A stretch of 64,000 nucleotides of DNA from Escherichia phage ECOP18: the sequence record NC_105825.1; one strand, written 5' to 3'. A model generated the notes under the pieces. That model was not told where the DNA came from, searched no databases, and saw only the letters and a list, made by a program, of their open reading frames with translations. Position numbers and translations under genes: made by a program. Positions 29,786 through 40,171 of this stretch are shown here, piece after piece (positions within the stretch are counted from its first letter, which is position 1; each line of letters begins with the position of its first letter).

Positions 29786-30775
29786 ATGACAGAAGAAGTA
29801 GCTAAGAGTCCTGAGACCGTCGCTAGCGTTGCAGCAGAACTGCACCGTCACGAGGAATCAGATAAGAAAAAGTGGGAGAAGGTCAGAGTCTACGAAGAAA
29901 AACATCGTGAACACGATGATGAAGAAGAAGATGACGATGATGAACATTGTCATAAATATGGAAAACATAAAATGCAAGAACCAGTAAACGTATTCACTAG
30001 TGGCTTCCCTGGCCTACTGGGTGGTTACCCAGCAAACGCAGGTGCTTTCGGTGGTGAAGGTATGGGACTATTCGGAGCTATCCTAATCGGTGCTCTATTA
30101 ACCGGCGGATTCGGTGGTTTCGGTGGATTCGGTGGACGTGGTGTAGTTGGTGAAGGTACCGCAGTTGATGCAGTACTTCAGAACCAAGATACCGCTAGTA
30201 TTCTAGCAGCTATCAACACTACTCGTACAGAGGCTAACCAGGGTACTGGAGCTGTTTTAAGCGCAGTTAACAATGGTTTTAGCCAGACAACCCAAAACCA
30301 GAGCCGTGATACTCAGTCTGTACTAACTACGATCTACGGTACAGGTGCTAATCTGTCTAATCAGATCTGCCAGGAAACTCGCAACGTTATTCAGGGTCAG
30401 TTCGATCTTTCTCGCCAGATTGATCAATCTTTCGCAGCTAACCAGATAGCTCGTGCACAAGATAAGTTTGATTCTGCACAGATCGCTTTCCAGCAGACTT
30501 TACAAACTAATAACCAGTTTGCCGCTGTTCAGGCTCAGATGTGTGCTAACCAGAACTCTCTGGAACGTCAGATCGCTGAATGTTGCTGTGAACTTCAGAC
30601 TGCGATCGCTGGTGTAACTACTGCGCGTATCCAGGATGAGTTAGACGCATGTCGCCTACGTGAAGCAATCGCTGCGGGTAGCGGTGCTAACGGTCAGGTA
30701 ATTAATCAAATCGCTTTAAGTCTTGGTGCTATCACTCAGACTCTGGCTGGTCTGCAGGCTAAACTGCCGGCTTAA
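29786..30775 (+). CDS. low-complexity protein: acidic N-terminus, Gly-rich hydrophobic segment, Gln/Asn/Thr-rich C-terminal region
   Basis: ORF track frame; start at ATG preceded by RBS aggagg; GMGLFGAILIGALLTGGFGGFGGFGG glycine-zipper-like segment; no recognisable family. Confidence 0.55.
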   Translation: MTEEVAKSPETVASVAAELHRHEESDKKKWEKVRVYEEKHREHDDEEEDDDDEHCHKYGKHKMQEPVNVFTSGFPGLLGGYPANAGAFGGEGMGLFGAILIGALLTGGFGGFGGFGGRGVVGEGTAVDAVLQNQDTASILAAINTTRTEANQGTGAVLSAVNNGFSQTTQNQSRDTQSVLTTIYGTGANLSNQICQETRNVIQGQFDLSRQIDQSFAANQIARAQDKFDSAQIAFQQTLQTNNQFAAVQAQMCANQNSLERQIAECCCELQTAIAGVTTARIQDELDACRLREAIAAGSGANGQVINQIALSLGAITQTLAGLQAKLPA

Positions 30776-30796
30776 TATTAAGGGGAGGAGCCCCTT

Positions 30797-31213
30797 ATGA
30801 GTAAATATGGTTTTGTAAATAACGGACTTAATCAAAGTATGGGCTCCCAGCAGCCCATTCCGGGTCTGGATAACCCCTACTTACAACAGTTGCAACAGCG
30901 TTTAGCAGAAGCGCAACAGATGCAGCAACAACTCCAGCAAAACCCTGGAAGTGTGAGTCCTATGCAAATGATGCAGCAAATGAGCGGGCAGTCGCAAATG
31001 CCTCAACAAATGCAGCAACAGGTGCCTCAGCAGCAAGTTCAGCAACAAACCCAACAACCGCAGGTTTCTGCGGAAGGACAGGCAGTACTAGCCCTTTTCG
31101 AAGACTTCGCAAAGACAGAGGATGGGAAACAGCTTGTATCACTTATGGGTAAGTTTAATAGCTTCTGCCAAAGCCAAGTTGCAAAAGCTCAAAATGGGGG
31201 TAGTAACTCCTAA
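30797..31213 (+). CDS. Gln-rich low-complexity protein
   Basis: 138 aa; RBS ggggagg upstream; QQ tracts throughout. Confidence 0.5.
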   Translation: MSKYGFVNNGLNQSMGSQQPIPGLDNPYLQQLQQRLAEAQQMQQQLQQNPGSVSPMQMMQQMSGQSQMPQQMQQQVPQQQVQQQTQQPQVSAEGQAVLALFEDFAKTEDGKQLVSLMGKFNSFCQSQVAKAQNGGSNS

Positions 31214-31222
31214 GGAGGAAAT

Positions 31223-31417
31223 ATGTGTTGCAGAAAATCTGTTTCGTGCTGCCCAGTGCCTGTAGCACGTTGTTGCTCTCCAGCAATGTTTACGCAAATA
31301 CCGGCGTTCAATCCCTTTGCCTTTAAACCTACTCTTATCCTGCCCCCTAGAGTAGATTTTCAGTCAAGATTGGCCTCCCGTATGGGTGGTTGCTGTACAC
31401 CGAGAGTATGGTTCTAA
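31223..31417 (+). CDS. Cys-rich small protein with four CC doublets
   Basis: 64 aa; RBS aggagg; MCCRK...SCCPV...RCCSP...GCCTP. Confidence 0.45.
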   Translation: MCCRKSVSCCPVPVARCCSPAMFTQIPAFNPFAFKPTLILPPRVDFQSRLASRMGGCCTPRVWF

Positions 31418-31431
31418 ACCAAAAACAAAAG

Positions 31432-31466
31432 CCCCTGCCGAAAGGTAAGGGGCTTTTTCTTTTGCC
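31432..31466 (+). terminator. rho-independent terminator
   Basis: agcccct-gccgaaaggta-aggggct hairpin followed by ttttctttt. Confidence 0.65.
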
Positions 31467-31479
31467 TTAAATACAGAAA

Positions 31480-31510
31480 AGCCCGCGCTCTCGTAGGAAA
31501 CGCGGGCTTG
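31480..31510 (-). terminator. rho-independent terminator (convergent)
   Basis: cccgcg...cgcggg hairpin followed by a U-run on the minus transcript after the SPFH gene. Confidence 0.55.
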
Positions 31511-31532
31511 GTTCGAAGATTACGTGTAACTA

Positions 31533-32480
31533 TTACTTGTTACGCATATCCATGATCATTTGACCATCGTAGCCAGTACCTACCACAGTCTGAGGTACAC
31601 CACCTTGATACTTCTGAGCACGGATCATTTCAACTTCCAGTTGTTTCCAACGAATCATTTCAGGAGTAATGGTACGTTGCAATGCGGCGTTAGCTTCAGC
31701 TTCTTTCTTAGCTGCGTACAGTTTAGCATCTGCGTCACGTTCATTAGCAATAGCTTGGTTGTTACGAGCTTCACGATCTGCTTCTGCTTGTTTAACTTTT
31801 TGCTGTGCTTCCTGTTCAACGCGAGCAAGTTCAGCTTTCGCAGCATTAACTTGCTCTTCACGAACTTTGGTATTCTGTACCTGTTCCATGATTACTGGCG
31901 GCAAGGTAATATCCTGAAGGAATACCTGCTTAACTGTGTAACCATATGGGCGCGCATACTCTTCAACTTCCTGTTGAATTGCAGTTTGCAATTGAGCCTG
32001 AATTTTAGCATCAAATAAATCTTGTGCTTTAGGTACAGACTTACCAAACTCACGAATAGTAGACAGTAATTTTTCAGTTACATACTTGTCTAGTGCCTGA
32101 TCCTGAGTACCTGCGTTAATACGGTTAATCGGTGCTTTAGAACCATCAAACTGCAACATAACAGTCAGGTCAACAGTGGATTTAAACTTATCCTGGCTAG
32201 GAACCTGAAGTTTATCTAATTTTACAGCAATATCTTTTGTACTAAAAGTATCGAAAGATGCAAACGGGTTTACAAGATGGAAGCCCGGCAATACTGGATT
32301 AGGGTCTACTTTACCCAGGAATGTTTGGGTTTTAACCGTACCATCAGAAACAATAGTATATGAATTAAAAGCTAGGATTAAACCTGCTAAACCAACTACA
32401 GCACCAATACCCCAACGTTTAATAGTACGAATTACTTTCTGCTCAGAAGTCAGTTCTTTCATATTTTTAGTAGCAAACAT
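31533..32480 (-). CDS. SPFH/band-7 (stomatin/prohibitin/HflKC-like) membrane protein
   Basis: 315 aa; N-terminal TM helix, then an Ala/Gln/Glu-rich coiled-coil region typical of SPFH proteins; assigned by overall architecture. Confidence 0.5.
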   Translation of the reverse strand: MFATKNMKELTSEQKVIRTIKRWGIGAVVGLAGLILAFNSYTIVSDGTVKTQTFLGKVDPNPVLPGFHLVNPFASFDTFSTKDIAVKLDKLQVPSQDKFKSTVDLTVMLQFDGSKAPINRINAGTQDQALDKYVTEKLLSTIREFGKSVPKAQDLFDAKIQAQLQTAIQQEVEEYARPYGYTVKQVFLQDITLPPVIMEQVQNTKVREEQVNAAKAELARVEQEAQQKVKQAEADREARNNQAIANERDADAKLYAAKKEAEANAALQRTITPEMIRWKQLEVEMIRAQKYQGGVPQTVVGTGYDGQMIMDMRNK

Positions 32481-32513
32481 ATATTTCCTTTGTTTTAGTT
32501 ACAGTTAATAAAA

Positions 32514-32589
32514 TTGGCCGAGGTGACAGGATTCGAACCTGCATAAAGGAATTTAGAAGACTCCTGCCTCTCCCTTAGACTACACCCCG
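32514..32589 (-). tRNA. tRNA-Arg (TCT)
   Basis: 76 nt; acceptor CGGGGTG/CACCTCG, anticodon stem GGAGT/ATTCC, loop CTTCTAA, T-loop TTCGAAT, CCA. Confidence 0.5.
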
Positions 32590-33084
32590 TTTAAGTATTT
32601 TTAAGAACTCTCGTAAAAACTCTTAAAAATACAGACGATACCGGGAGAGTCATAAGTCTCACTCATTAAGTATTTCAAGACAAAATACAGTAACGTCTAT
32701 TATTTTCCAGTTTAAGTCAGGGTGACTTAGTGGTTATGTCCTGCGGTATATTGAGGACTCGGTTAGGCTTGGGGTCATGACTTCCCACCTTTTGCTGCTA
32801 CTCAACAGGAGTTATCGCGAATTACCTGTGCTATTGTGCACCATTAGTGACATCTCTCATGTCAGCATTTCCCACTTTGTGGATAGCTTGAAAAACTACT
32901 CCGATATGGAGAAAGAACTTCACTATCCTAGAATACCTTCTAAAGTTCTTCTTTAGCCTGGACATAGTTAAATCGTAATAAAACTATTCAGCAGACTGGT
33001 TGGTTAGTCTGGAACCAACTACCGCGTGGTTTAGGCAGTGCGCAACTAACCTCGGAAGCTTTTATGTTAAAAGCATCAGTTATC

Positions 33085-33170
33085 CAGTTCTTACCGACCG
33101 TAGGATTCGAACCTACATCTTCCACCAGTTACGGCTTGATAATACCAATTATACTAGGACGGCAGTGTTA
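33085..33170 (-). ncRNA. tRNA-like element (T-arm GTAGG-TTCGAAT-CCTAC), no clean cloverleaf
   Basis: T-arm motif inside an 830-bp ORF-free stretch that is transcribed from the promoter at 33387. Confidence 0.25.
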
Positions 33171-33386
33171 CTACATAAGTGATTTCCACACCCCACTATT
33201 TATAAATCAGAGAAGAGTTTAGGGGAGAGGTTTCAGACGCCTCATTTTACACGTTCTAGCCACTAACCGGGATTGCCGCCCCCTGTGTACTAGTTTTACA
33301 ACTAACCCACCGACTCTATTCAATGCGCTCCGGTTGGGATTCTGCACTCAGCGTAATCGGCTCGCTGTTCCCTAATTTATGAATAT

Positions 33387-33415
33387 ATTATACAGAATTT
33401 ATAAGCATTTAGCAA
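33387..33415 (-). promoter_or_regulatory. early sigma70-type promoter (TTGCTA-17-TATAAT) driving a non-coding region
   Basis: Same architecture; nothing coding downstream until tRNA-Arg. Confidence 0.55.
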
Positions 33416-33423
33416 ATGAATTT

Positions 33424-33858
33424 TTAGAAAAATTCACTAGCAATCAAAGCAGTTGTTTTACCGTCATAACGTCCGGGAAATTCTGCCTTAATAGTTTTCA
33501 TTAATAGAGCTTTGGTAATACCTGGGTTTAATTTAACCAGTTCTGCAAAATACTCACGAATCTGAACCTCAGTCAGTTGACTTGGCTGATACTCTTGCAG
33601 CATGGAATAAAGCAGTTGCTCATAGTCTACATCAGTAGGAACTTCCATACCAACTTTAATAGCGCGTTGTTTTGCATTTTCTAGAGCCTTAATCTGAGCT
33701 TTCAGATAGGCTACGAACTCGGTTCGAGTAACAATGTCTTTATCAATACGTTGCAGATCACCAATCATGGTCTGAAGATTAAGTGCCCGTTCCTTATCAC
33801 CGTGAGTACGTGCTAGACTAAGTAGTGCACGAAGGGTCATTAGAATATTTTCACCCAT
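33424..33858 (-). CDS. hypothetical protein
   Basis: ORF track 144 aa. Confidence 0.5.
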   Translation of the reverse strand: MGENILMTLRALLSLARTHGDKERALNLQTMIGDLQRIDKDIVTRTEFVAYLKAQIKALENAKQRAIKVGMEVPTDVDYEQLLYSMLQEYQPSQLTEVQIREYFAELVKLNPGITKALLMKTIKAEFPGRYDGKTTALIASEFF

Positions 33859-34029
33859 TATTTCATCCCCAATGCTTGGTTAAAAGATTGTTCTGTCATA
33901 ACTGCTGAGACTTTGGCGAAATCAAACTTTTTAGGGTTCGTAGTTATTTCAGCAACGTTAGAAGTTTTAACAGTTTTCGTAGTACGAATACCGCGAGTGT
34001 TAACACCAATAATTACAACTGATTTCATA
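33859..34029 (-). CDS. small hypothetical protein (56 aa)
   Basis: Hand-translated MKSVVIIGVNTRG...; RBS in the leader. Confidence 0.35.
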
Positions 34030-34060
34030 TTTCGCTTCCTCTCATTAATTTATGAAAGTA

Positions 34061-34090
34061 TTATACAGAAATTTAAGTAGCTAAGCAAGT
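34061..34090 (-). promoter_or_regulatory. early sigma70-type promoter (TTGCTT-18-TATAAT)
   Basis: Same family, 18-bp spacer. Confidence 0.5.
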
Positions 34091-34096
34091 AAATTT

Positions 34097-34564
34097 TTAA
34101 GTTTTAGTGACAACAGGTTTATAGAATGTATGTCCCTTAATCTTAGTTGTTTTCTTAAACTTCTTTGTCCAGTAAGGTTTATCTTTACCACTATGGAAGT
34201 ATAGTGCTCCATATGTAGGATCTTGTGGTAAATCAACGTAGTATATCACTCTAGCTAAATTCTTAGCGGTTTGCCAAGCCTCATCAGTTTTATCAACTTT
34301 TGGTCTCTTAGATACCCAAGAGAACTGGTTAGACTGATATACTACTTTACAGTAGGAATCTGGGAATTTACCGGAGTTTACACGGTTTTTAGTAACATGT
34401 GCAATCGCCGTCATTCCCTTTATGCCCTCACCACGACTTTCGAAATAGATATTTTTAGCAATGCAATCTATTTCTTTTGCATCGTGCGATGCCTGACTAC
34501 TAAAGCTGAAGGTAAGGGCAGCTACTAAAAGCAAAGCTGCCTTCATTCTTTTTACTCCTGCCAA
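34097..34564 (-). CDS. secreted cell-wall-hydrolase-like protein (SleB-like)
   Basis: 155 aa; signal peptide; NIYFESRGEG...HVTKNRV...YFHSG resembles the SleB-type hydrolase domain. Confidence 0.45.
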   Translation of the reverse strand: MAGVKRMKAALLLVAALTFSFSSQASHDAKEIDCIAKNIYFESRGEGIKGMTAIAHVTKNRVNSGKFPDSYCKVVYQSNQFSWVSKRPKVDKTDEAWQTAKNLARVIYYVDLPQDPTYGALYFHSGKDKPYWTKKFKKTTKIKGHTFYKPVVTKT

Positions 34565-34869
34565 TCATATTCAACACGATTGGGATTTTCTTTATACCCT
34601 AAGTCAAGCAAATCATTACGCATATTTTGCTTAGCTACTGGGTTCGAGGTTACTAGTACCACTTTCTTTGGTCTCTGCCCAAATTCTAAGAGTAAACGAA
34701 GAATTTGATAACCTTCCATACCATCTACAGCCAAGTCATTATCCATATAAACGAAATGGCCGGTGGTATCAGTTTTATTCAGAAACTCTACAGCGGCTTC
34801 TGGGGTTCGAATGATAATGTCCATTCCGTGAAGATTACGCACATCATCAATCAAAATATGAAAAGTCAT
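34552..34869 (-). CDS. hypothetical protein
   Basis: ORF track 105 aa. Confidence 0.5.
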   Translation of the reverse strand: MTFHILIDDVRNLHGMDIIIRTPEAAVEFLNKTDTTGHFVYMDNDLAVDGMEGYQILRLLLEFGQRPKKVVLVTSNPVAKQNMRNDLLDLGYKENPNRVEYDWQE

Positions 34870-34899
34870 AATAGCCTCGTTTCATCAATTTAAAAATGT

Positions 34900-34929
34900 A
34901 TTATACAGATAACTTAGTAAATTAGCAAA
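34900..34929 (-). promoter_or_regulatory. early sigma70-type promoter (TTGCTA-18-TATAAT)
   Basis: Same family. Confidence 0.5.
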
Positions 34930-35311
34930 TACATTTTTAAATTGTGAAACTAGTAAACCGATAAACAGCCTAGAGGCGCCACAGGCCATATCTTATGAGC
35001 CATGTACCTTTGATCTAGGGTTTGAATCATCAACGAATACTTTGCATCTTTTAGCTTTAGAAGTTTAGAAGTTTGAGTTCTTTAAACTTTTCAGCTTTCA
35101 TACTTAAATGTTGATCTTTGAAGTTGTGTCGGTAATATCAACGACGCTTTGTTCTTACGTGTCAGCTTAAAAGGCTGGTGTAATAAACATAATCTCCAAT
35201 AGATTATACTTTATAGTATGGTCAGCGGTCCTATTTAACCTCGTATTTCAACCGCTGCTGCGAGGTAAGATGCTTGGGCTTTCGTCTACCGATTTACTAG
35301 CTTTTAAATTA

Positions 35312-35950
35312 TTACTCTACTTCAATGAAGGTAGAGGCGTTAGACTCGGACAGAACAAAGTCAACATTTGTTGCAAAGTCCTGATATTCCTCGTCATGCT
35401 GCTTAATCAGCTTTTCCAGTTCCAGCGGATCAATCAAGAATGGAGTATTCTTGAGTTCCAGCAGGTTGAGCTGCATTTTAACTTCATCTTCGGAAGTTTT
35501 CTTATCGCGGGTAGCCATGCTATCCTGCAAACGCTCATATTTAGCATCAAACTGTGCTTTCTGCGTATTAAACTTAACCGTAGCGGCATGGAACTGCTTA
35601 CGCATGTTAGCCAGCAGTTGGGCTTTAAGTTCCATAGAACGCTTAGCTTCAATTGCTTCCGCAACAGTCATCTTACGAGAGCCAATCTCAACGATTGTTT
35701 CCGCATTGCTTTTAATCAGAGCAGCTTTGATACGATCACGCTGGGACATCATATCCAGCAGAGACTGGAAATCAGTCTTAATACGAGTAGACAGATCAGC
35801 TACTTCGATTGCAGCGCCAACTACAACTTGGTTTTTATCCTTACCTTCACCAACAGCGATCAGAAGCTGCTGTTCAGTAGCTTTACGGATTTTAGCTTCC
35901 AGAGATTTGATAGTTGCCAGAGCGCGAGTTTTAGAAATACGAGTAGTCAT
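35312..35950 (-). CDS. hypothetical coiled-coil protein
   Basis: ORF track 212 aa; on the strand of its neighbours; the two plus-strand ORFs here are antisense shadows. Confidence 0.5.
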   Translation of the reverse strand: MTTRISKTRALATIKSLEAKIRKATEQQLLIAVGEGKDKNQVVVGAAIEVADLSTRIKTDFQSLLDMMSQRDRIKAALIKSNAETIVEIGSRKMTVAEAIEAKRSMELKAQLLANMRKQFHAATVKFNTQKAQFDAKYERLQDSMATRDKKTSEDEVKMQLNLLELKNTPFLIDPLELEKLIKQHDEEYQDFATNVDFVLSESNASTFIEVE

Positions 35951-36003
35951 TATTTGCTTCCTTATATGAAGTTTGAGATTTGAATTTGTTTAAAGTTGGT
36001 CTA

Positions 36004-36186
36004 TTACAGACCAATTGCCAGCAGAGTGCGTAGAACAGTATCATTACTGTTATCAATTTTAGGATTAGCACGATTTAGCAGATCAAAGATTTTCTGGGTA
36101 CCTGATTGACGTTCAGCCATACGACGGATACCCAGATTACGAGTAGCTTTCTTACCATTTTTACGAACATTTTTAGATACTGGCAT
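36004..36186 (-). CDS. small basic protein
   Basis: ORF track 60 aa; Lys/Arg-rich. Confidence 0.45.
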   Translation of the reverse strand: MPVSKNVRKNGKKATRNLGIRRMAERQSGTQKIFDLLNRANPKIDNSNDTVLRTLLAIGL

Positions 36187-36226
36187 ATATGTTTTCCTTT
36201 TATTGTTTTCTCAAATTTATGAATAT

Positions 36227-36255
36227 ATTATACAGAATTTTGAGGCCGGAAGCAA
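36227..36255 (-). promoter_or_regulatory. early sigma70-type promoter (TTGCTT-17-TATAAT)
   Basis: Same architecture. Confidence 0.6.
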
Positions 36256-36256
36256 A

Positions 36257-36958
36257 TCAAATTTTCATTTTTTCGATCATAGCTGCAACACAATAGCTTT
36301 CAACTAAGGCATCAAATGCAGGATCATGCTTAACCGGATAGATCCCATAACGAATAGTGTCCATCTTCTCCATTTTAGCTATTGCCCAGCTAATACCTTC
36401 GGTCTCTAGAGCTTTATAACTGTATCCAGCTTGCATCCAGAGATTACGAAGAGATCGAACATTACCCAAATTCCAGAATTTCCACGGAACTACCTCTTCA
36501 TTAGTTCCAGAATGGAACGTGTTTGCAGAGTAGATAGTCATATCAAACTCTGGGCCATTGCCATAATACAAAGCATTTTCACCTAGAGCCAACTCCATAA
36601 TATTTTGAGCCATAGAGAAGGCAGCATAGTTTGAGCCTAATTTATTAGTGCAATGATGTTTACCATTTTGGAAGGCAATCAGTTTTGGATTACGTTCCTT
36701 CATGGCTTCCATAATGTGGATAGCAGACGGGCTATTTTTAGCTTGATCCATCCAGAATGCTAGAGTAGATGCTGTAACTTTGGCACCAGAATTAAGCTGA
36801 TCCTGCACATCCAAAGTAACAAATACTAGATCAGGGTCTTTATCAATTCCATGCATAGCCACAAAAGCGAAAGAAGGCATTGCGATATGAGTAGTACCAC
36901 AATCTCCTGGAGTTCCCAGAGATTCAATATCTAGCATACCAAATGGTTTTACTTTCAT
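36257..36958 (-). CDS. DEDD-type 3'-5' exonuclease-like protein
   Basis: 233 aa; N-terminal DIESLG resembles the Exo I motif of DnaQ-like exonucleases. Confidence 0.45.
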   Translation of the reverse strand: MKVKPFGMLDIESLGTPGDCGTTHIAMPSFAFVAMHGIDKDPDLVFVTLDVQDQLNSGAKVTASTLAFWMDQAKNSPSAIHIMEAMKERNPKLIAFQNGKHHCTNKLGSNYAAFSMAQNIMELALGENALYYGNGPEFDMTIYSANTFHSGTNEEVVPWKFWNLGNVRSLRNLWMQAGYSYKALETEGISWAIAKMEKMDTIRYGIYPVKHDPAFDALVESYCVAAMIEKMKI

Positions 36959-36986
36959 AACTTATCCTTTATTGTGTAGAAAACTA

Positions 36987-37223
36987 TTAAAGAGCTGTCT
37001 CTTTAATAGACTCCCACTTCTTGGGGTCTTTAAAACCAGGAAGCATATCCTCACCGACATCCCAGTTTTCTTCCATAGAAAAATCGGGCCATTCATCCCA
37101 GCTACCTTCCAATTCTTCGTAACAGGTATCCATTACCTCATGACTAGAAAGTCGTGTATAATCTCTAGCGGACTTATGAGTGCTAGCACGATTAAAGTCA
37201 TTCTTTGCTACAAAATTACGCAT
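36987..37223 (-). CDS. small acidic protein
   Basis: ORF track 78 aa. Confidence 0.4.
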   Translation of the reverse strand: MRNFVAKNDFNRASTHKSARDYTRLSSHEVMDTCYEELEGSWDEWPDFSMEENWDVGEDMLPGFKDPKKWESIKETAL

Positions 37224-37264
37224 AGTTTCTCCAAATAAGAGGGGCTTTCGCCCCCTGATTTAAA

Positions 37265-37480
37265 TTACTTGCCCAGCAGTTTAAGAATATTTTCCATAAT
37301 AGTTTGGGCAGACTTTTCACTCTTGTTGGTTTCAGCCAACTTTAAAGCGAGTTCTTCCTGCTGTTTCTGAATATCAGCAGCGATTTTTTGATCAGCCTCA
37401 ATACGAGCTTGAAGCTCATCAGTGATAGTGGTAAAGGAAGCAATGATTTCAGTAACGGAACGTGGTTTCTTAGAGAACAT
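37265..37480 (-). CDS. hypothetical coiled-coil protein
   Basis: ORF track 71 aa. Confidence 0.45.
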   Translation of the reverse strand: MFSKKPRSVTEIIASFTTITDELQARIEADQKIAADIQKQQEELALKLAETNKSEKSAQTIMENILKLLGK

Positions 37481-37543
37481 AAAAATATCCTTGATTAGTT
37501 AGAGAATCGGTAGATTGTAGGGGCAGAAGCCCCTACTTATCTA

Positions 37544-38059
37544 TTACTTCGCTTTACGCTTGCGAGCTGGTTTAGCAGATTTACGAGCGGAATCACCAGT
37601 GAACTTAATGCCTACACCGTAACACAGAGCGCGAACATTATCTTTACTATACTCTACGCCAAAGATATTTGGCTTAACAGAACCAAACTGTCCACGAGTA
37701 TCACGCAATACATCTGCTGTTGGTTTACGCTTCTGGTTAACTGCCTTCTCATAGTCTTTCATAGACATACCATTACGAGAGAACAATTCAGCCCCAGCGT
37801 TGAAGCTCAGGGAAACTGGGACAGATTTGTGGCCGTAATTTTCTACATACATAACCATTTTGTAAGATTTACGGGTGGTATTTTTAGCTTTAGGCTTTTG
37901 ACGAATCGGAGCCGGATTATTCAGTGCTTGCGCAGCCTGAGCATCGGTAGGATGCTTACGCAGGTGACGTTCCAGACGAGCTTTGCGATTAGCCTCGGTC
38001 TGTGGGAAAGTTTTAACTGCCGGAGCTGCTTGAGTTTTTGCGTTTTTCTGCTTAGCCAT
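37544..38059 (-). CDS. basic, probably nucleic-acid-binding protein
   Basis: 171 aa; Lys/Arg-rich at both termini. Confidence 0.45.
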   Translation of the reverse strand: MAKQKNAKTQAAPAVKTFPQTEANRKARLERHLRKHPTDAQAAQALNNPAPIRQKPKAKNTTRKSYKMVMYVENYGHKSVPVSLSFNAGAELFSRNGMSMKDYEKAVNQKRKPTADVLRDTRGQFGSVKPNIFGVEYSKDNVRALCYGVGIKFTGDSARKSAKPARKRKAK

Positions 38060-38097
38060 TATTTGTTTTCCTTTTTGTTTATCAATTTATGAAGTAT

Positions 38098-38126
38098 ATT
38101 ATACGAGAATTTGAAGCGTTTAGCAA
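38098..38126 (-). promoter_or_regulatory. early sigma70-type promoter (TTGCTA-17-TATAAT)
   Basis: Same architecture. Confidence 0.6.
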
Positions 38127-38142
38127 ATGAATTTTTTAAAAA

Positions 38143-38421
38143 TTATCTACCAACCATCTTAGCTTGTTCGGCATCTGAGACATATTGATACGCTCCTTTA
38201 TTATACGCTGGAGCAGTACACATTTTCTTACGCTCAATCTCTTCTTGAGCTTTTCTTTCGCGTTCAGCTAATTCTTCATCCAGATAAACTAAACGTTGCT
38301 CTGGAGGAGGTGGGAGACGTGTTTCTGGCTCACCAATATTAGCCTTTCTTATTTGACGAGGTGATTGTGCACGTTTTCTCAATGGCTTAAATCCTAATGA
38401 ATTTGAGTTATAAATCCGCAT
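38143..38421 (-). CDS. hypothetical protein
   Basis: ORF track 92 aa. Confidence 0.5.
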   Translation of the reverse strand: MRIYNSNSLGFKPLRKRAQSPRQIRKANIGEPETRLPPPPEQRLVYLDEELAERERKAQEEIERKKMCTAPAYNKGAYQYVSDAEQAKMVGR

Positions 38422-38448
38422 AAAGCCCTCCTCACTTTCAATACGAAT

Positions 38449-38477
38449 ATTATACTAAATTAGAGGGCTTTAAGCAA
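38449..38477 (-). promoter_or_regulatory. early sigma70-type promoter (TTGCTT-17-TATAAT)
   Basis: Same architecture. Confidence 0.55.
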
Positions 38478-38497
38478 GAAAATTTTTAATTTATTTA

Positions 38498-38974
38498 TTA
38501 CATCTCGGCAAGTTCTTGCTCGGTAATAACTGTGTTACACAATGCATCTACAGCCTCATTACCACTAATACCAGAATGCCCTTTAACCTTAATAAAGGTA
38601 GGATTAGTATTATGAAAGTTGATATACTGCTGTGTTAATCTAAATGCTTCCTGCCAAAGTTCTAGATTAAGAGGGACTTCACCATCTGCTTTCTTCCAAC
38701 CTTTCCTTTGCCAAGAAAACATCCAACTTTCCATACCATTTTTGCAATAAGCAGAGTCAGTATAGATAGCAATTGGTCTATTATCTTTTCTAACAGACCA
38801 ACGTAGAGCTTCTACAATAGCTGTGAGTTCCATCTCATTATTTGTAGTTTTAGGATTATAACCAGATTTAGAACCTAAACGATCGTCGTTATCATCATAG
38901 ACAATAAAACCCCAAGCACCTGGACCTGGATTAGACTTACAAGCACCATCTGTGTAAATGTGGAAAACCGACAT
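38498..38974 (-). CDS. rnh: ribonuclease H
   Basis: 158 aa; DGACKSNPGPGAWGF N-terminal motif and conserved acidic residues of RNase HI. Confidence 0.7.
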   Translation of the reverse strand: MSVFHIYTDGACKSNPGPGAWGFIVYDDNDDRLGSKSGYNPKTTNNEMELTAIVEALRWSVRKDNRPIAIYTDSAYCKNGMESWMFSWQRKGWKKADGEVPLNLELWQEAFRLTQQYINFHNTNPTFIKVKGHSGISGNEAVDALCNTVITEQELAEM

Positions 38975-39331: not shown

Positions 39332-40171
39332 TTAAGAAGACATTTTAGCTTTAAGAGCTGGATGCGGATCATATCCTTCAAGCTGGAAGGACCAAGCCGC
39401 AGTATTATTCTCTAATAAATCATAAAGGTCTACAAATTCTGGCATTACTAGAGTTGGCAGAGGACGTGGTTTACGTTTCAGTTGCTCCTCTACTTGCTCT
39501 ATATGATCACTGTAAATGTGTGTATCTCCACCACTAAAGATGAGATAACGAGGTTTTAGCCCAGTCAGTTTTGCCAGGATATGTGTTAATAAAGCATAAC
39601 TAGCAATATTGAAAGGTAGGCCTAGAAAACAGTCTACAGAACGTTGTGTCCATTTAAGATCTAAGTATCCATCATTACTTACGTAACACTGGAAACCATA
39701 GTGACATGGTGGTAGTGCCATCTTATCTAGTTCGGCAACGTTCCATGCAGATACTAGGTGTCTACGACCATGTGGATTATTCTTGAGACCCTCAATGAGT
39801 TCTGTGATCTGATCTCGTCCACCAAAGTTGCGCCATTGTTTACCATATACTGGTCCCAGATTACCTCTGTCATAACCCATGCTTATGGCTTGGTCTTCAT
39901 AATTTGGAGTCCAGATAGTCCACTGTCCTTCGTCACGCCCAAATGTGGATACTCGCAAATCATGGAGATTTGTAGATCCAGATAAAAACCATAAGAGTTC
40001 TCCAACTACCGATTTCCAAGCTAGACGTTTAGTGGTTACGGCAGGGAACCCCTCACGTAGGTCGAACTTAGCATAGGAATCAAAAATTGAAACTGTGCCT
40101 GTTCCTGTACGATCGTTACGTGGTTCGCCTAGTAGAATTACATCTGTTAGAATTTTTAAATATTGTTGCAT
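39332..40171 (-). CDS. thyA: thymidylate synthase
   Basis: 279 aa; GEPRNDRTGTGT, LAWKSVVGELLWFLSG, PPCH motifs. Confidence 0.85.
   Translation of the reverse strand: MQQYLKILTDVILLGEPRNDRTGTGTVSIFDSYAKFDLREGFPAVTTKRLAWKSVVGELLWFLSGSTNLHDLRVSTFGRDEGQWTIWTPNYEDQAISMGYDRGNLGPVYGKQWRNFGGRDQITELIEGLKNNPHGRRHLVSAWNVAELDKMALPPCHYGFQCYVSNDGYLDLKWTQRSVDCFLGLPFNIASYALLTHILAKLTGLKPRYLIFSGGDTHIYSDHIEQVEEQLKRKPRPLPTLVMPEFVDLYDLLENNTAAWSFQLEGYDPHPALKAKMSS

What the first reader, a model, noticed from the sequence alone, without database searches (positions are those of the whole stretch)
31533..32480. SPFH/band-7-like membrane protein next to the plus-strand island
The product has an N-terminal TM helix and a long Ala/Gln/Glu coiled-coil region typical of HflK/C, stomatin and prohibitin proteins. 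Phage SPFH proteins are uncommon. Its position, convergent with the low-complexity island and sharing back-to-back terminators, suggests a membrane-associated functional unit.
Basis: inference. Interest (0 to 1): 0.45.

Follow-up and report, generated by a model that had tools for sequence, protein, structure and literature searches.

The report
T5-family phage SPFH membrane scaffold gene
The ORF is a real, already catalogued T5-family phage gene (T5.080) for a membrane-anchored SPFH/band-7 scaffold protein; its function is untested, T5 can grow in the lab without it, and it is not tied to the neighbouring gene island.

Summary
The window is a T5-like phage (Tequintavirus, 99.9% to several records). 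ORF 31533..32480(-) is the homologue of T5.080 (99% aa). It is an SPFH/band-7 protein: Pfam PF01145 scores 64 bits against a cut-off of 23.6. The AlphaFold model has a TM helix, an alpha/beta SPFH domain, a 76-residue helix, a second helix and a C-terminal beta segment. It matches erlin, prohibitin, HflK/C, stomatin and QmcA cage subunits at probability 1.0.

The "lipoprotein" label in RefSeq and PHROG 200 is wrong for this copy, which has no cysteine. Flank charges, plus relatives with a true lipobox at the same position, place the SPFH domain in the periplasm, as in HflK/C.

The gene is found in about as many Escherichia/Salmonella T5-like records as a core replication gene. Copies of 60-80% identity occur in T4-like and Grimontviridae phages. 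dN/dS is 0.02-0.07. Even so, the viable T5 st0 deletion mutant lacks it.

The proposed functional unit with the plus-strand island is not supported. The island is in only 221 records, is replaced by NadR-PnuC in Epseptimavirus, and recurs without SPFH beside it in Pseudomonas phage KPP23.

No experimental study of function turned up. An HflK/C-like cage on the inner membrane is the best guess for mechanism. The gene itself is already known, so interest is modest.

The parts
33387..33415 (-). Sigma-70-type promoter-like site (TTGCTA-17-TATAAT). It corresponds to T5 promoter P16-17 and is the likely start of the transcript carrying the RNAX-like leader, tRNA-Arg and the SPFH gene.
   Evidence: Consensus scan, 10 of 12 matches. 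The T5 RefSeq record annotates 'promoter P 16-17' at the equivalent position upstream of RNAX. That it drives this transcript is inferred.
32590..33386 (-). Non-coding leader equivalent to T5 'RNAX' (stable RNA of unknown function). It contains a tRNA-like element at 33092-33163.
   Evidence: T5 annotation misc_RNA rnaX. Rfam tRNA model scores 35.5 bits against a cut-off of 29 at 33092-33163. ARAGORN did not call it.
32515..32589 (-). tRNA-Arg(UCU), ending 35 nt upstream of the SPFH start codon.
   Evidence: ARAGORN. Rfam 49.3 bits. Annotated in T5 and related records.
32486..32490 (-). Shine-Dalgarno AAGGA, 5 nt before the ATG.
   Evidence: Read directly from the sequence.
31533..32480 (-). 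SPFH/band-7 protein gene, 315 aa, homologue of T5.080.
   Evidence: ORF. Pfam PF01145 E = 2e-17. PHROG 200 E = 1.9e-86. 99% aa identity to T5.080. dN/dS 0.02-0.07.
32352..32414 (-). Residues 23-43: N-terminal uncleaved signal-anchor / TM helix, preceded by a K/R-rich cytoplasmic tail.
   Evidence: Hydropathy and flank charges across 25 homologues: N flank 83 K/R against 20 D/E, C flank 44 against 30. Helix in the AlphaFold model. Relatives carry a lipobox Cys at the same position.
31905..32351 (-). Residues 44-192: alpha/beta SPFH domain, including the invariant VPSQDK(F/L)K motif at residues 93-100.
   Evidence: Pfam match to residues 52-225. Model secondary structure. Invariant columns in the alignment. 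Foldseek matches.
31611..31898 (-). Residues 195-290: long Ala/Gln/Glu-rich helices (CC1 195-270, CC2 273-290), equivalent to the wall and roof helices of SPFH cages.
   Evidence: Model. Composition 46% A+Q+E. Full-length alignment to erlin, PHB, HflK/C and stomatin subunits.
31536..31610 (-). Residues 291-315: conserved C-terminal segment (KYxGGVPxTVVG...MDxR) with short beta strands. It is the probable cap or closure element of the oligomer.
   Evidence: Conservation. Strands at 300-302 and 308-310 in the model, at low pLDDT. The role in closure is inferred by analogy.
31479..31509 (-). Proximal terminator-like hairpin of the SPFH gene. It contains the GCGC consensus that T5 annotates as a major single-strand interruption (nick) site.
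   Evidence: Scan: 12 pairs, 7 G-C. -20.7 kcal/mol, z = -3.4. T5 misc_feature at 39746-39747 maps here. GCGC and the stem are conserved, with compensatory changes, in T5 and S114.
31420..31462 (.). Bidirectional rho-independent terminator shared by the SPFH transcript and the plus-strand island.
   Evidence: Folds on both strands with flanking U-tracts. T5 annotates it as an 'efficient bidirectional rho-independent transcription terminator'. Conserved in S114.

Best explanation
This is the T5.080-family gene of T5-like phages.

Shown: it encodes a single-pass, membrane-anchored protein of the SPFH (stomatin/prohibitin/flotillin/HflK-C) superfamily. It has the full architecture of a cage-forming subunit: TM anchor, SPFH domain, long coiled-coil helices and a C-terminal closure segment.

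Inferred with moderate support: the N-terminus stays in the cytoplasm and the SPFH domain faces the periplasm. This is the topology of HflK/C and of prohibitins.

Inferred from position: the gene is co-transcribed from an early sigma-70 promoter with the RNAX-like leader and tRNA-Arg.

Inferred by analogy: it self-assembles into a homo-oligomeric ring or cage on the outer face of the host inner membrane. That cage fences off a membrane patch and controls which inner-membrane proteins can enter or leave it. The best precedent for a client is the FtsH protease, which pairs with both same-topology families. This step is speculative (my estimate about 0.25).

Shown: it is an accessory gene. T5 grows in the laboratory without it. 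In nature it is strongly conserved and has moved between unrelated virulent phage families.

It is an independent gene, not a unit with the T5.077-079 island.
For: Identity:
- Pfam PF01145, 64.2 bits, E = 2e-17.
- PDB sequence matches: QmcA 1.8e-6, PHB2 8.6e-5.
- AlphaFold model, pLDDT 78.7, with TM / SPFH / 76-residue helix / second helix / C-terminal strands.
- Foldseek probability 1.0 over 266-320 alignment columns to erlin1/2, PHB1/2, HflK/C, stomatin, QmcA and flotillin cage subunits.

Topology:
- Flank charges across 25 homologues: N flank 83 K/R against 20 D/E; C flank 44 against 30.
- Eight or more subfamily members replace the anchor with a canonical lipobox (LGSC, LGAC, IGAC, FSGC, LTGC) directly before the first SPFH strand. 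That forces export of the domain.

Transcription context.

Dispensable in the lab:
- T5 st0 (AY692264, 8,512 bp shorter than wild type) joins remnants of the T5.068 and T5.081 equivalents. tblastn finds no SPFH gene across the junction.
- Phage NG_S8 keeps only a 55-aa in-frame remnant.

Selected in nature:
- dN/dS 0.02 against T5 (dS 0.33) and 0.066 against S114.
- 439 records carry an SPFH copy at >=80% identity, and 439 records carry a core replication gene at >=80% identity.

Horizontal spread: 73-80% identity in T4-like RB43/Klebsiella phages and in Grimontviridae; about 60% in Aeromonas T4-likes.

Independence from the island.
Against: - No oligomer, localisation or partner was tested, or can be tested, with these tools.
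- The protein is not an HflK or HflC orthologue: no NCBIfam model matches, and HflK/C are not among the sequence-level PDB hits.
- There is no FtsH-related or NfeD gene nearby, in the phage or next to the cellular homologues.
- T5 st0 grows without the gene, so any effect on host proteostasis is not required for lytic growth on laboratory E. coli.
- Topology rests on the positive-inside rule and on lipobox-bearing relatives, not on an experiment.
- The C-terminal closure segment is modelled at low confidence (pLDDT below 50).
Confidence: 0.55

Rival explanations
1. Membrane-integrity or lysis-timing factor. The periplasm-facing SPFH lattice stabilises the inner membrane and proton-motive force after DNA injection and during infection, or restrains lateral aggregation of holin. 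This would prevent premature lysis.
For: - In T4-like phages the gene always sits beside the lysis-inhibition genes: tk - rI - rI.-1 - SPFH in RB43 and a Klebsiella phage, and tk - hyp - SPFH - gp192 - rI in Aeromonas AS-gz.
- In the T5-like window and in Proteus phage J3S it lies within about 1-2 kb of a SleB-type (PF07486) cell-wall hydrolase. The window's copy starts with a hydrophobic, signal-peptide-like N-terminus (MAGVKRMKAALLLVAALTFSFSSQA; my reading, no predictor was run).
- Membrane stabilisation is a general SPFH role (established knowledge of flotillins and stomatins).
Against: - The tk-rI region of T4-like genomes is a known hyperplastic insertion zone, so adjacency may be incidental.
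- The PF07486 hydrolase occurs in 1,282 phage records, and its distribution does not track the SPFH gene.
- More distant phage SPFH genes (Vibrio 268E42.1, Aeromonas LAh_8) have no annotated lysis neighbours.
- I know of no lysis defect reported for T5 st0 (own knowledge; not searched for specifically).
Confidence: 0.2
2. Envelope-level competition factor. An early periplasm-exposed protein that blocks DNA entry by superinfecting phages (as T4 Imm/Sp or HK97 gp15 do), or blunts a membrane-acting host defence.
For: - The gene lies in the deletable tRNA region of T5. That region is known to carry counter-defence cargo, for example tRNA-Lys against PARIS (PMC11464382).
- It is dispensable in the lab yet under strong purifying selection, the usual signature of host-range or competition genes.
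- It has been exchanged between unrelated virulent phages of the same hosts.
- It is inferred to be periplasm-facing and expressed early.
Against: - No SPFH protein is known to act this way.
- There is no PADLOC hit.
- No paper linking phage SPFH proteins to exclusion or anti-defence was found.
- Stand-alone chromosomal homologues sit in housekeeping contexts in Morganella, Providencia and methylotrophs, which points to a general membrane role.
Confidence: 0.15
3. One reading: the SPFH protein and the convergent low-complexity island (T5.077-079 homologues) form one membrane-associated functional unit.
For: - Physical adjacency and a shared bidirectional terminator.
- The T5.077 homologue has a Gly-rich hydrophobic stretch that could be membrane-associated (sequence).
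Against: - Opposite strands, with separate promoters P12 and P16-17.
- Island genes occur in 221 records, against about 439 T5-like records with SPFH.
- The island is replaced by NadR-PnuC in Epseptimavirus while SPFH and the terminator stay in place.
- SPFH occurs without the island beside it in T4-like and Grimontviridae phages.
- The island occurs as a three-gene cassette in Pseudomonas phage KPP23 with no SPFH gene next to it.
- The island has a different GC content: 47% against 40% for the SPFH gene.
Confidence: 0.04
4. It is a lipoprotein, as T5 RefSeq and PHROG 200 label it.
For: - Annotation in NC_005859 and many derived records.
- Some family members do have a genuine lipobox.
Against: - The protein has no cysteine at all, so it cannot be lipid-modified at a lipobox.
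- The hydrophobic segment has no signal-peptidase II motif (sequence).
Confidence: 0.01

Closest known systems
T5.080 of Escherichia phage T5 (YP_006908.1) and PHROG 200
   Same: Same gene: 99% aa identity, same position between tRNA-Arg and the bidirectional terminator. PHROG 200 E = 1.9e-86. Some records already call it 'SPFH domain containing protein' or 'band 7 family protein'.
   Different: Nothing of substance. The widespread 'lipoprotein' product name does not fit, because there is no Cys.
E. coli HflK/HflC (FtsH-modulating SPFH cage; PDB 7vhq, 7wi3, 9cz2)
   Same: Type II membrane anchor with an inferred periplasm-facing SPFH domain. Same domain order (TM, SPFH, CC1, CC2, C-terminal segment). 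Full-length structural match at probability 1.0.
   Different: Only 16-19% identity. No match to HflK/HflC NCBIfam models. One gene rather than a paralogous pair, so any ring would be a homo-oligomer. No evidence of FtsH binding.
Prohibitin PHB1/PHB2 complex (PDB 8rrh, 9o9z)
   Same: N-terminal anchor, with the SPFH domain on the side of the membrane facing away from the matrix/cytoplasm. Sequence-level similarity is detectable (PHB2 E = 8.6e-5) and the structural match is strong.
   Different: Eukaryotic heterodimeric ring. Identity 16-19%. The phage protein has a longer, distinct C-terminal motif (KYxGGVPxTVVG) conserved only within its own small subfamily.
E. coli QmcA (stomatin-type; QmcA-YbbJ complex, PDB 8z5g)
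   Same: Best sequence-level PDB match (E = 1.8e-6 for the single sequence, 1.6e-7 for the profile). Similar length. Homo-oligomeric.
   Different: QmcA works with an NfeD partner (YbbJ) encoded next to it, and its SPFH domain faces the cytoplasm (established knowledge). Here there is no NfeD neighbour and the opposite topology is inferred.
Stand-alone chromosomal SPFH genes of Morganella/Providencia and of Methylococcaceae/Methylophaga
   Same: Nearest cellular relatives: 57-59% and 33-41% identity, same length and architecture, single genes without NfeD or FtsH neighbours.
   Different: They sit in housekeeping neighbourhoods with no prophage context. They are uncharacterised, so they add no functional information. 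The direction of transfer between phage and cell is unknown.

Membership tests
SPFH / band-7 superfamily (Pfam PF01145) | Profile match above the curated gathering score | tested here: met
   64.2 bits against a cut-off of 23.6, E = 2e-17, residues 52-225. All listed full-length homologues carry PF01145.
SPFH / band-7 superfamily (Pfam PF01145) | Alpha/beta SPFH fold followed by a long coiled-coil helix | tested here: met
   AlphaFold model, pLDDT 78.7. Foldseek probability 1.0 to erlin, PHB, HflK/C, stomatin, QmcA, flotillin and MVP.
SPFH / band-7 superfamily (Pfam PF01145) | Membrane attachment through an N-terminal hydrophobic segment | tested here: met
   Hydrophobic 19-mer at residues 25-43, conserved in 25 homologues. 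Helix in the model.
SPFH / band-7 superfamily (Pfam PF01145) | Assembly into a large ring or cage oligomer | not testable with these tools
   Only monomer prediction is available. All structural elements used for assembly are present.
HflK/HflC (FtsH modulators) | Match to the HflK or HflC family models | tested here: not met
   No NCBIfam family at E <= 0.1. HflK/C are absent from sequence-level PDB hits at E <= 0.01.
HflK/HflC (FtsH modulators) | Two paralogous subunits encoded together | tested here: not met
   A single SPFH gene in the locus and in all related phage loci examined.
HflK/HflC (FtsH modulators) | N-in, periplasm-facing SPFH domain | tested here: inconclusive
   Supported by the positive-inside rule and by lipobox-bearing relatives. 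There is no experimental topology.
HflK/HflC (FtsH modulators) | Physical association with FtsH | not testable with these tools
   Needs pull-down or cryo-EM from infected or expressing cells.
Stomatin/QmcA-NfeD operon pair | Adjacent NfeD-family partner gene | tested here: not met
   Neighbouring ORFs are Toprim, unknowns, YqeY-like, DUF7616, Hydrolase_2 and cREC_REC. None is NfeD.
Prohibitin family | Significant, specific sequence similarity to PHB1/PHB2 | tested here: inconclusive
   PHB2 E = 8.6e-5 and PHB1 about 6e-4 to 6e-3, weaker than QmcA. Subfamily assignment is unresolved.
Bacterial lipoprotein (current product name) | Lipobox with the invariant Cys at the signal-peptidase II site | tested here: not met
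   Zero cysteines in the 315-aa product.
Known anti-phage defence proteins (PADLOC) | Match to any PADLOC-DB model | tested here: not met
   No family at E <= 0.1 for the SPFH protein or the three island proteins.

The most novel reading that the evidence does not exclude
A virus-encoded, homo-oligomeric, periplasm-facing SPFH cage that virulent phages of three or more families (Demerecviridae, Straboviridae, Grimontviridae) exchange among themselves. Phages would deploy it early to re-partition the host inner membrane. It could corral FtsH or another inner-membrane machine, so as to protect phage membrane proteins, tune lysis, or shut out competitors and defences. That would make it the first functionally defined viral SPFH microdomain organiser.
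Probability: 0.25. Interest if true: 0.6.

Novelty: already known. Interest (0 to 1): 0.3.

Why it matters
No function has been established for any viral SPFH protein, as far as the paper searches here could find. Yet the family is spread from T5-like and T4-like phages to giant viruses.

This copy combines three useful properties. It is present in essentially every Escherichia/Salmonella T5-like genome in the collection. It is under very strong purifying selection. And it is cleanly dispensable in a standard laboratory mutant, T5 st0. Together these make T5 a convenient system for asking what a virus gains from building an SPFH scaffold on its host's membrane.

As a sequence finding it is ordinary. 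The gene has been catalogued since the 2005 T5 genome. The practical corrections are two: the 'lipoprotein' product name is wrong for this copy, and the gene is not coupled to the neighbouring island.

Tried and rejected
1. NCBIfam and PADLOC scans of the protein returned nothing. It therefore has no equivalog name and no defence-system assignment.
2. The afdb50 fold library was not available. Nearest cellular relatives were found through genome contigs instead.
3. I looked for a conserved small partner ORF (an NfeD-like or membrane protein) next to the SPFH gene in S114, J3S, AS-gz and RB43. The flanking small ORFs are unrelated to each other.
4. I tested whether the NAD-salvage genes next to SPFH in Epseptimavirus (NadR-PnuC) and in T4-likes (NMNAT/'cytidyltransferase') are one co-transferred cassette. 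tblastn found no similarity, so they are not homologous.
5. I tested co-occurrence with the SleB-type hydrolase. The hydrolase is in 1,282 records with a different distribution, so there is no specific link.
6. I looked for conserved neighbours of the cellular homologues. They have only lineage-specific housekeeping synteny: trpA-accD-folC in the Methylophaga group, an NDH-2-like oxidoreductase in Methylococcaceae, and varied contexts in Morganella and Providencia.
7. Seven literature searches found no functional study of a T5-family or other phage SPFH protein.
8. The T5Mos deletion of the PARIS paper (delta 30661-38625) stops short of T5.080. That mutant therefore says nothing about this gene.
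Full report
**What the window is.** The 4.5 kb around the finding is 99.9% identical to several Tequintavirus genomes: Escherichia phages SUT_E420, T5_ev212 and vB_EcoS_MM-1. The window carries the long minus-strand tRNA array typical of T5. The ORF at 31533..32480(-) is the homologue of T5.080 in the T5 reference genome. It is 99% identical at the protein level and sits in the same place, between tRNA-Arg and a bidirectional terminator.

**Checking the observation.** Every descriptive element holds.
- The ORF is 315 aa with an ATG start and an AAGGA ribosome-binding site 5 nt upstream.
- Residues 25-43 form the most hydrophobic 19-residue window. The AlphaFold model has a helix at 12-38.
- Residues 195-270 are modelled as one continuous helix, followed by a second at 273-290. 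This stretch is 46% Ala+Gln+Glu, against 26% for the whole protein.
- The gene is convergent with three plus-strand ORFs, the homologues of T5.077, T5.078 and T5.079.
- Two stable hairpins lie between them. One is at 31479-31509 on the SPFH strand. The other, at about 31420-31462, has U-tracts on both strands. T5 annotates the second as an efficient bidirectional terminator. Both are conserved, with compensatory stem changes, in T5 and Salmonella phage S114.

**What the protein is.**
- Pfam PF01145 (SPFH/Band 7) matches at 64.2 bits against a gathering score of 23.6, E = 2e-17.
- Against PDB sequences the best matches are E. coli QmcA (1.8e-6) and human prohibitin-2 (8.6e-5). A profile of 25 homologues gives the same ranking.
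- An AlphaFold model built on those homologues (mean pLDDT 78.7) has five elements in order: TM helix, alpha/beta domain (41-192), 76-residue helix, second helix, and short C-terminal strands.
- Foldseek aligns the model over 266-320 alignment columns, at probability 1.0, to the cryo-EM subunits of the erlin1/2, prohibitin, HflK/C, stomatin, QmcA and flotillin cages. Identity is only 16-20%.
- Membership of the SPFH superfamily is therefore secure. Assignment to a named subfamily is not.
- No NCBIfam model matches, including those for HflK and HflC.
- An exhaustive HMMER search of 1.84 billion cluster representatives found only 957 relatives at E <= 1e-3 and 36 at E <= 1e-30. This is a small, divergent SPFH subfamily.

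**The 'lipoprotein' label.** T5 RefSeq and PHROG 200 call the product a lipoprotein. Many records have inherited that name. This protein contains no cysteine, so it cannot be one. The name probably comes from relatives. At least eight members of the subfamily have a canonical lipobox (LGSC, LGAC, IGAC, FSGC, LTGC and others) exactly where the T5-type anchor ends, just before the first SPFH strand.

**Topology.** Those lipobox variants are informative, because a lipoprotein version must export its SPFH domain. Flank charges across 25 homologues point the same way: 83 K/R against 20 D/E on the N-terminal side of the anchor, and 44 against 30 on the C-terminal side. Together these support an N-in, C-out signal-anchor with the SPFH domain in the periplasm. 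That is the orientation of HflK/C and, equivalently, of mitochondrial prohibitins. It is the opposite of QmcA (established knowledge). This is an inference, not a measurement.

**Expression context.**
- The tRNA-Arg gene ends 35 nt upstream of the start codon.
- Further upstream lies the equivalent of T5 'RNAX', a stable RNA of unknown function, and then a good sigma-70 promoter match at 33415-33387. This coincides with T5 promoter P16-17.
- No promoter-like site was found between the tRNA and the ORF.
- I therefore infer that the mRNA is co-transcribed with RNAX and tRNA-Arg. Named early promoters such as P-D/E 33 and P-H 207 lie nearby, so this is the early region of the genome.

**Distribution and selection.**
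- tblastn finds the protein in 724 of 50,697 phage records.
- 439 of those records carry it at >=80% identity. The same number, 439, carry a core replication protein of the window at >=80% identity. Essentially every Escherichia/Salmonella T5-like record in the collection appears to have the gene.
- Copies of 73-80% identity occur in T4-like phages (RB43 and Klebsiella, Enterobacter and Cronobacter phages of about 175 kb) and in about 90-kb Grimontviridae (Proteus J3S, Cronobacter vB_CsaP_009). Copies of about 60% identity occur in Aeromonas T4-likes. Identity this high across unrelated families implies horizontal exchange among virulent phages.
- The SPFH domain in the T4-like copies was already tabulated in 2006 (PMC1524935).
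- Other SPFH proteins occur in Vibrio, Rhizobium and Streptomyces phages and in giant viruses. One is listed in the gene-product tables of a Vi01-like phage mass-spectrometry study (PMC10892097). 'Uncommon' therefore overstates the case.
- Purifying selection is strong: dN/dS = 0.02 against T5 at dS = 0.33, and 0.066 against S114.
- The nearest cellular relatives are stand-alone chromosomal genes in Morganella and Providencia (57-59%) and in Methylococcaceae/Methylophaga (33-41%). They sit in housekeeping neighbourhoods with no prophage, NfeD or FtsH genes.

**Dispensability.**
- The GenBank record of the T5 st0 deletion mutant is 8,512 bp shorter than wild type. It joins remnants of the T5.068 and T5.081 equivalents at an annotated recombination site.
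- tblastn with the SPFH protein finds nothing across that junction, while it finds T5.080 in wild type. A viable laboratory phage therefore lacks the gene, together with the island, nine tRNAs and RNAX.
- A natural Epseptimavirus, NG_S8, retains only a 55-aa in-frame remnant that fuses residues 1-17 to the C-terminal 38.
- The T5Mos deletion used in the PARIS study ends before T5.080 and is uninformative here.
- Dispensable in the lab but tightly conserved in nature is the profile of an accessory fitness gene.

**Is it a unit with the plus-strand island? The evidence says no.**
- The two are transcribed from different promoters on opposite strands and are separately terminated.
- T5.077 and T5.078 homologues are each found in exactly 221 records, about half of the T5-likes that have the SPFH gene.
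- In Epseptimavirus S114 the SPFH gene and the terminator are in place, but the island is replaced by co-directional NadR and PnuC genes.
- T4-like and Grimontviridae phages have the SPFH gene without the island beside it.
- Pseudomonas phage KPP23 has the island as a complete three-gene cassette (ORF074-072; 320, 143 and 64 aa), next to its terminase and with no SPFH gene beside it.
- The island also differs in GC content: 47% against 40% for the SPFH gene and 39% for the window.

**How it most likely works.**
- Shown: it is a membrane-anchored SPFH protein with every structural element that cage-forming relatives use.
- Inferred: the domain is periplasmic, and the protein forms a homo-oligomeric ring or cage that isolates a patch of inner membrane.
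- Speculative: the client is FtsH. Both SPFH families with this topology, HflK/C and prohibitins, partner with FtsH-type AAA proteases. Closed HflK/C cages restrict FtsH access to membrane substrates (PMC12048511 abstract, and established knowledge). A phage cage could protect phage membrane proteins or retune host membrane proteostasis.
- Against this: the protein is not an HflK/C orthologue, nothing in the neighbourhood points to FtsH, and T5 st0 does not need the gene.

**Rival mechanisms.**
- A membrane-integrity or lysis-timing role. The gene is adjacent to rI and rI.-1 in T4-likes and lies near a SleB-type hydrolase in the T5-like window and in J3S. However, the hydrolase is far more widely distributed than the SPFH gene, and the tk-rI region is an insertion hotspot.
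- An envelope-level exclusion or counter-defence role. This fits the gene's location in the deletable, counter-defence-rich tRNA region and its selection profile. It has no precedent and no database support.

**Literature.** Seven full-text searches found no functional study of this or any other phage SPFH protein.

**Verdict.** The SPFH interpretation is correct. The rarity claim and the 'functional unit' claim are not supported. The gene is already known and annotated, although often misnamed. Its function is an open but modest question, and T5 st0 and simple expression assays make it easy to address.

Noticed in passing
window 29786-31417 (+); L070 3521-5132: The plus-strand island (T5.077/078/079 homologues; 329, 138 and 64 aa) is a mobile three-gene cassette. 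The products are Gly-rich/hydrophobic plus Q/N-rich, Q-rich, and CC-pair-rich respectively. GC is 47% against 39% for the window. It is in only 221 phage records, and it recurs with the same gene order and sizes in Pseudomonas phage KPP23 (ORF074-072). It has no Pfam or PADLOC match.
   Followed up: partly
window 31479-31509 (about 31488): The proximal terminator hairpin of the SPFH gene contains the GCGC consensus that the T5 RefSeq record marks as a 'major DNA single-chain interruption' (T5 39746-39747). The motif and the stem are conserved in T5 and S114, with compensatory changes.
   Followed up: partly
window 33092-33163 (-): A tRNA-like element (Rfam tRNA 35.5 bits, above the gathering score of 29) that ARAGORN did not call. 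It lies inside the equivalent of T5 'RNAX', a 719-nt stable RNA of unknown function. Some related records annotate it as 'tRNA-OTHER'.
   Followed up: partly
window 34097-34869 (-); L065 5194-6308: A cREC_REC (PF20274) protein and a SleB-type cell-wall hydrolase (PF07486) lie within about 1-2.5 kb of the SPFH gene, both in this T5-like phage and in the unrelated Proteus phage J3S (Grimontviridae). The window's hydrolase starts with a hydrophobic, signal-peptide-like N-terminus (my reading of the sequence). The hydrolase alone is too widespread (1,282 records) for a specific link.
   Followed up: partly
L067 4708-6442; L064 5061-6119; L073 4077-5138: NAD-salvage genes sit immediately downstream of the SPFH gene in two lineages: NadR + PnuC in Epseptimavirus S114, and an NMN adenylyltransferase/Nudix-like 'cytidyltransferase' in RB43 and a Klebsiella T4-like. 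The enzymes are not detectably homologous by tblastn.
   Followed up: partly
L068 3462-3629: Escherichia phage NG_S8 carries an in-frame deletion that leaves a 55-aa remnant of the SPFH gene. Residues 1-17 are fused to the last 38 at an 'IR' microhomology. It also lacks the NadR-PnuC genes of its relatives.
   Followed up: yes
L064 3971-4864: The RB43 copy (ORF139c) diverges completely over its last roughly 20 residues (…YKVVYLKLSWVLITLAK) from the otherwise invariant C-terminal motif. This suggests a frameshift or a sequencing error in that record.
   Followed up: no
L003 (NZ_JBHSCL010000010.1); phage records MG065642.1 and OR848287.1: A 178-kb contig in a 'Flagellimonas marina' genome assembly encodes a T4-like-phage-type SPFH copy at 74% identity, and is probably a contaminating enterobacterial phage genome. 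T5-like records labelled 'Campylobacter phage A148' and 'Listeria phage LM 4-14-1' look like host misattributions.
   Followed up: no
L015 5968-6939; L008 5992-6933: Morganella and Providencia chromosomes carry a stand-alone homologue (57-59% identity) in different housekeeping neighbourhoods. This is much closer to the phage clade than any other cellular sequence found, so there has been a phage-to-cell or cell-to-phage transfer in Morganellaceae.
   Followed up: partly
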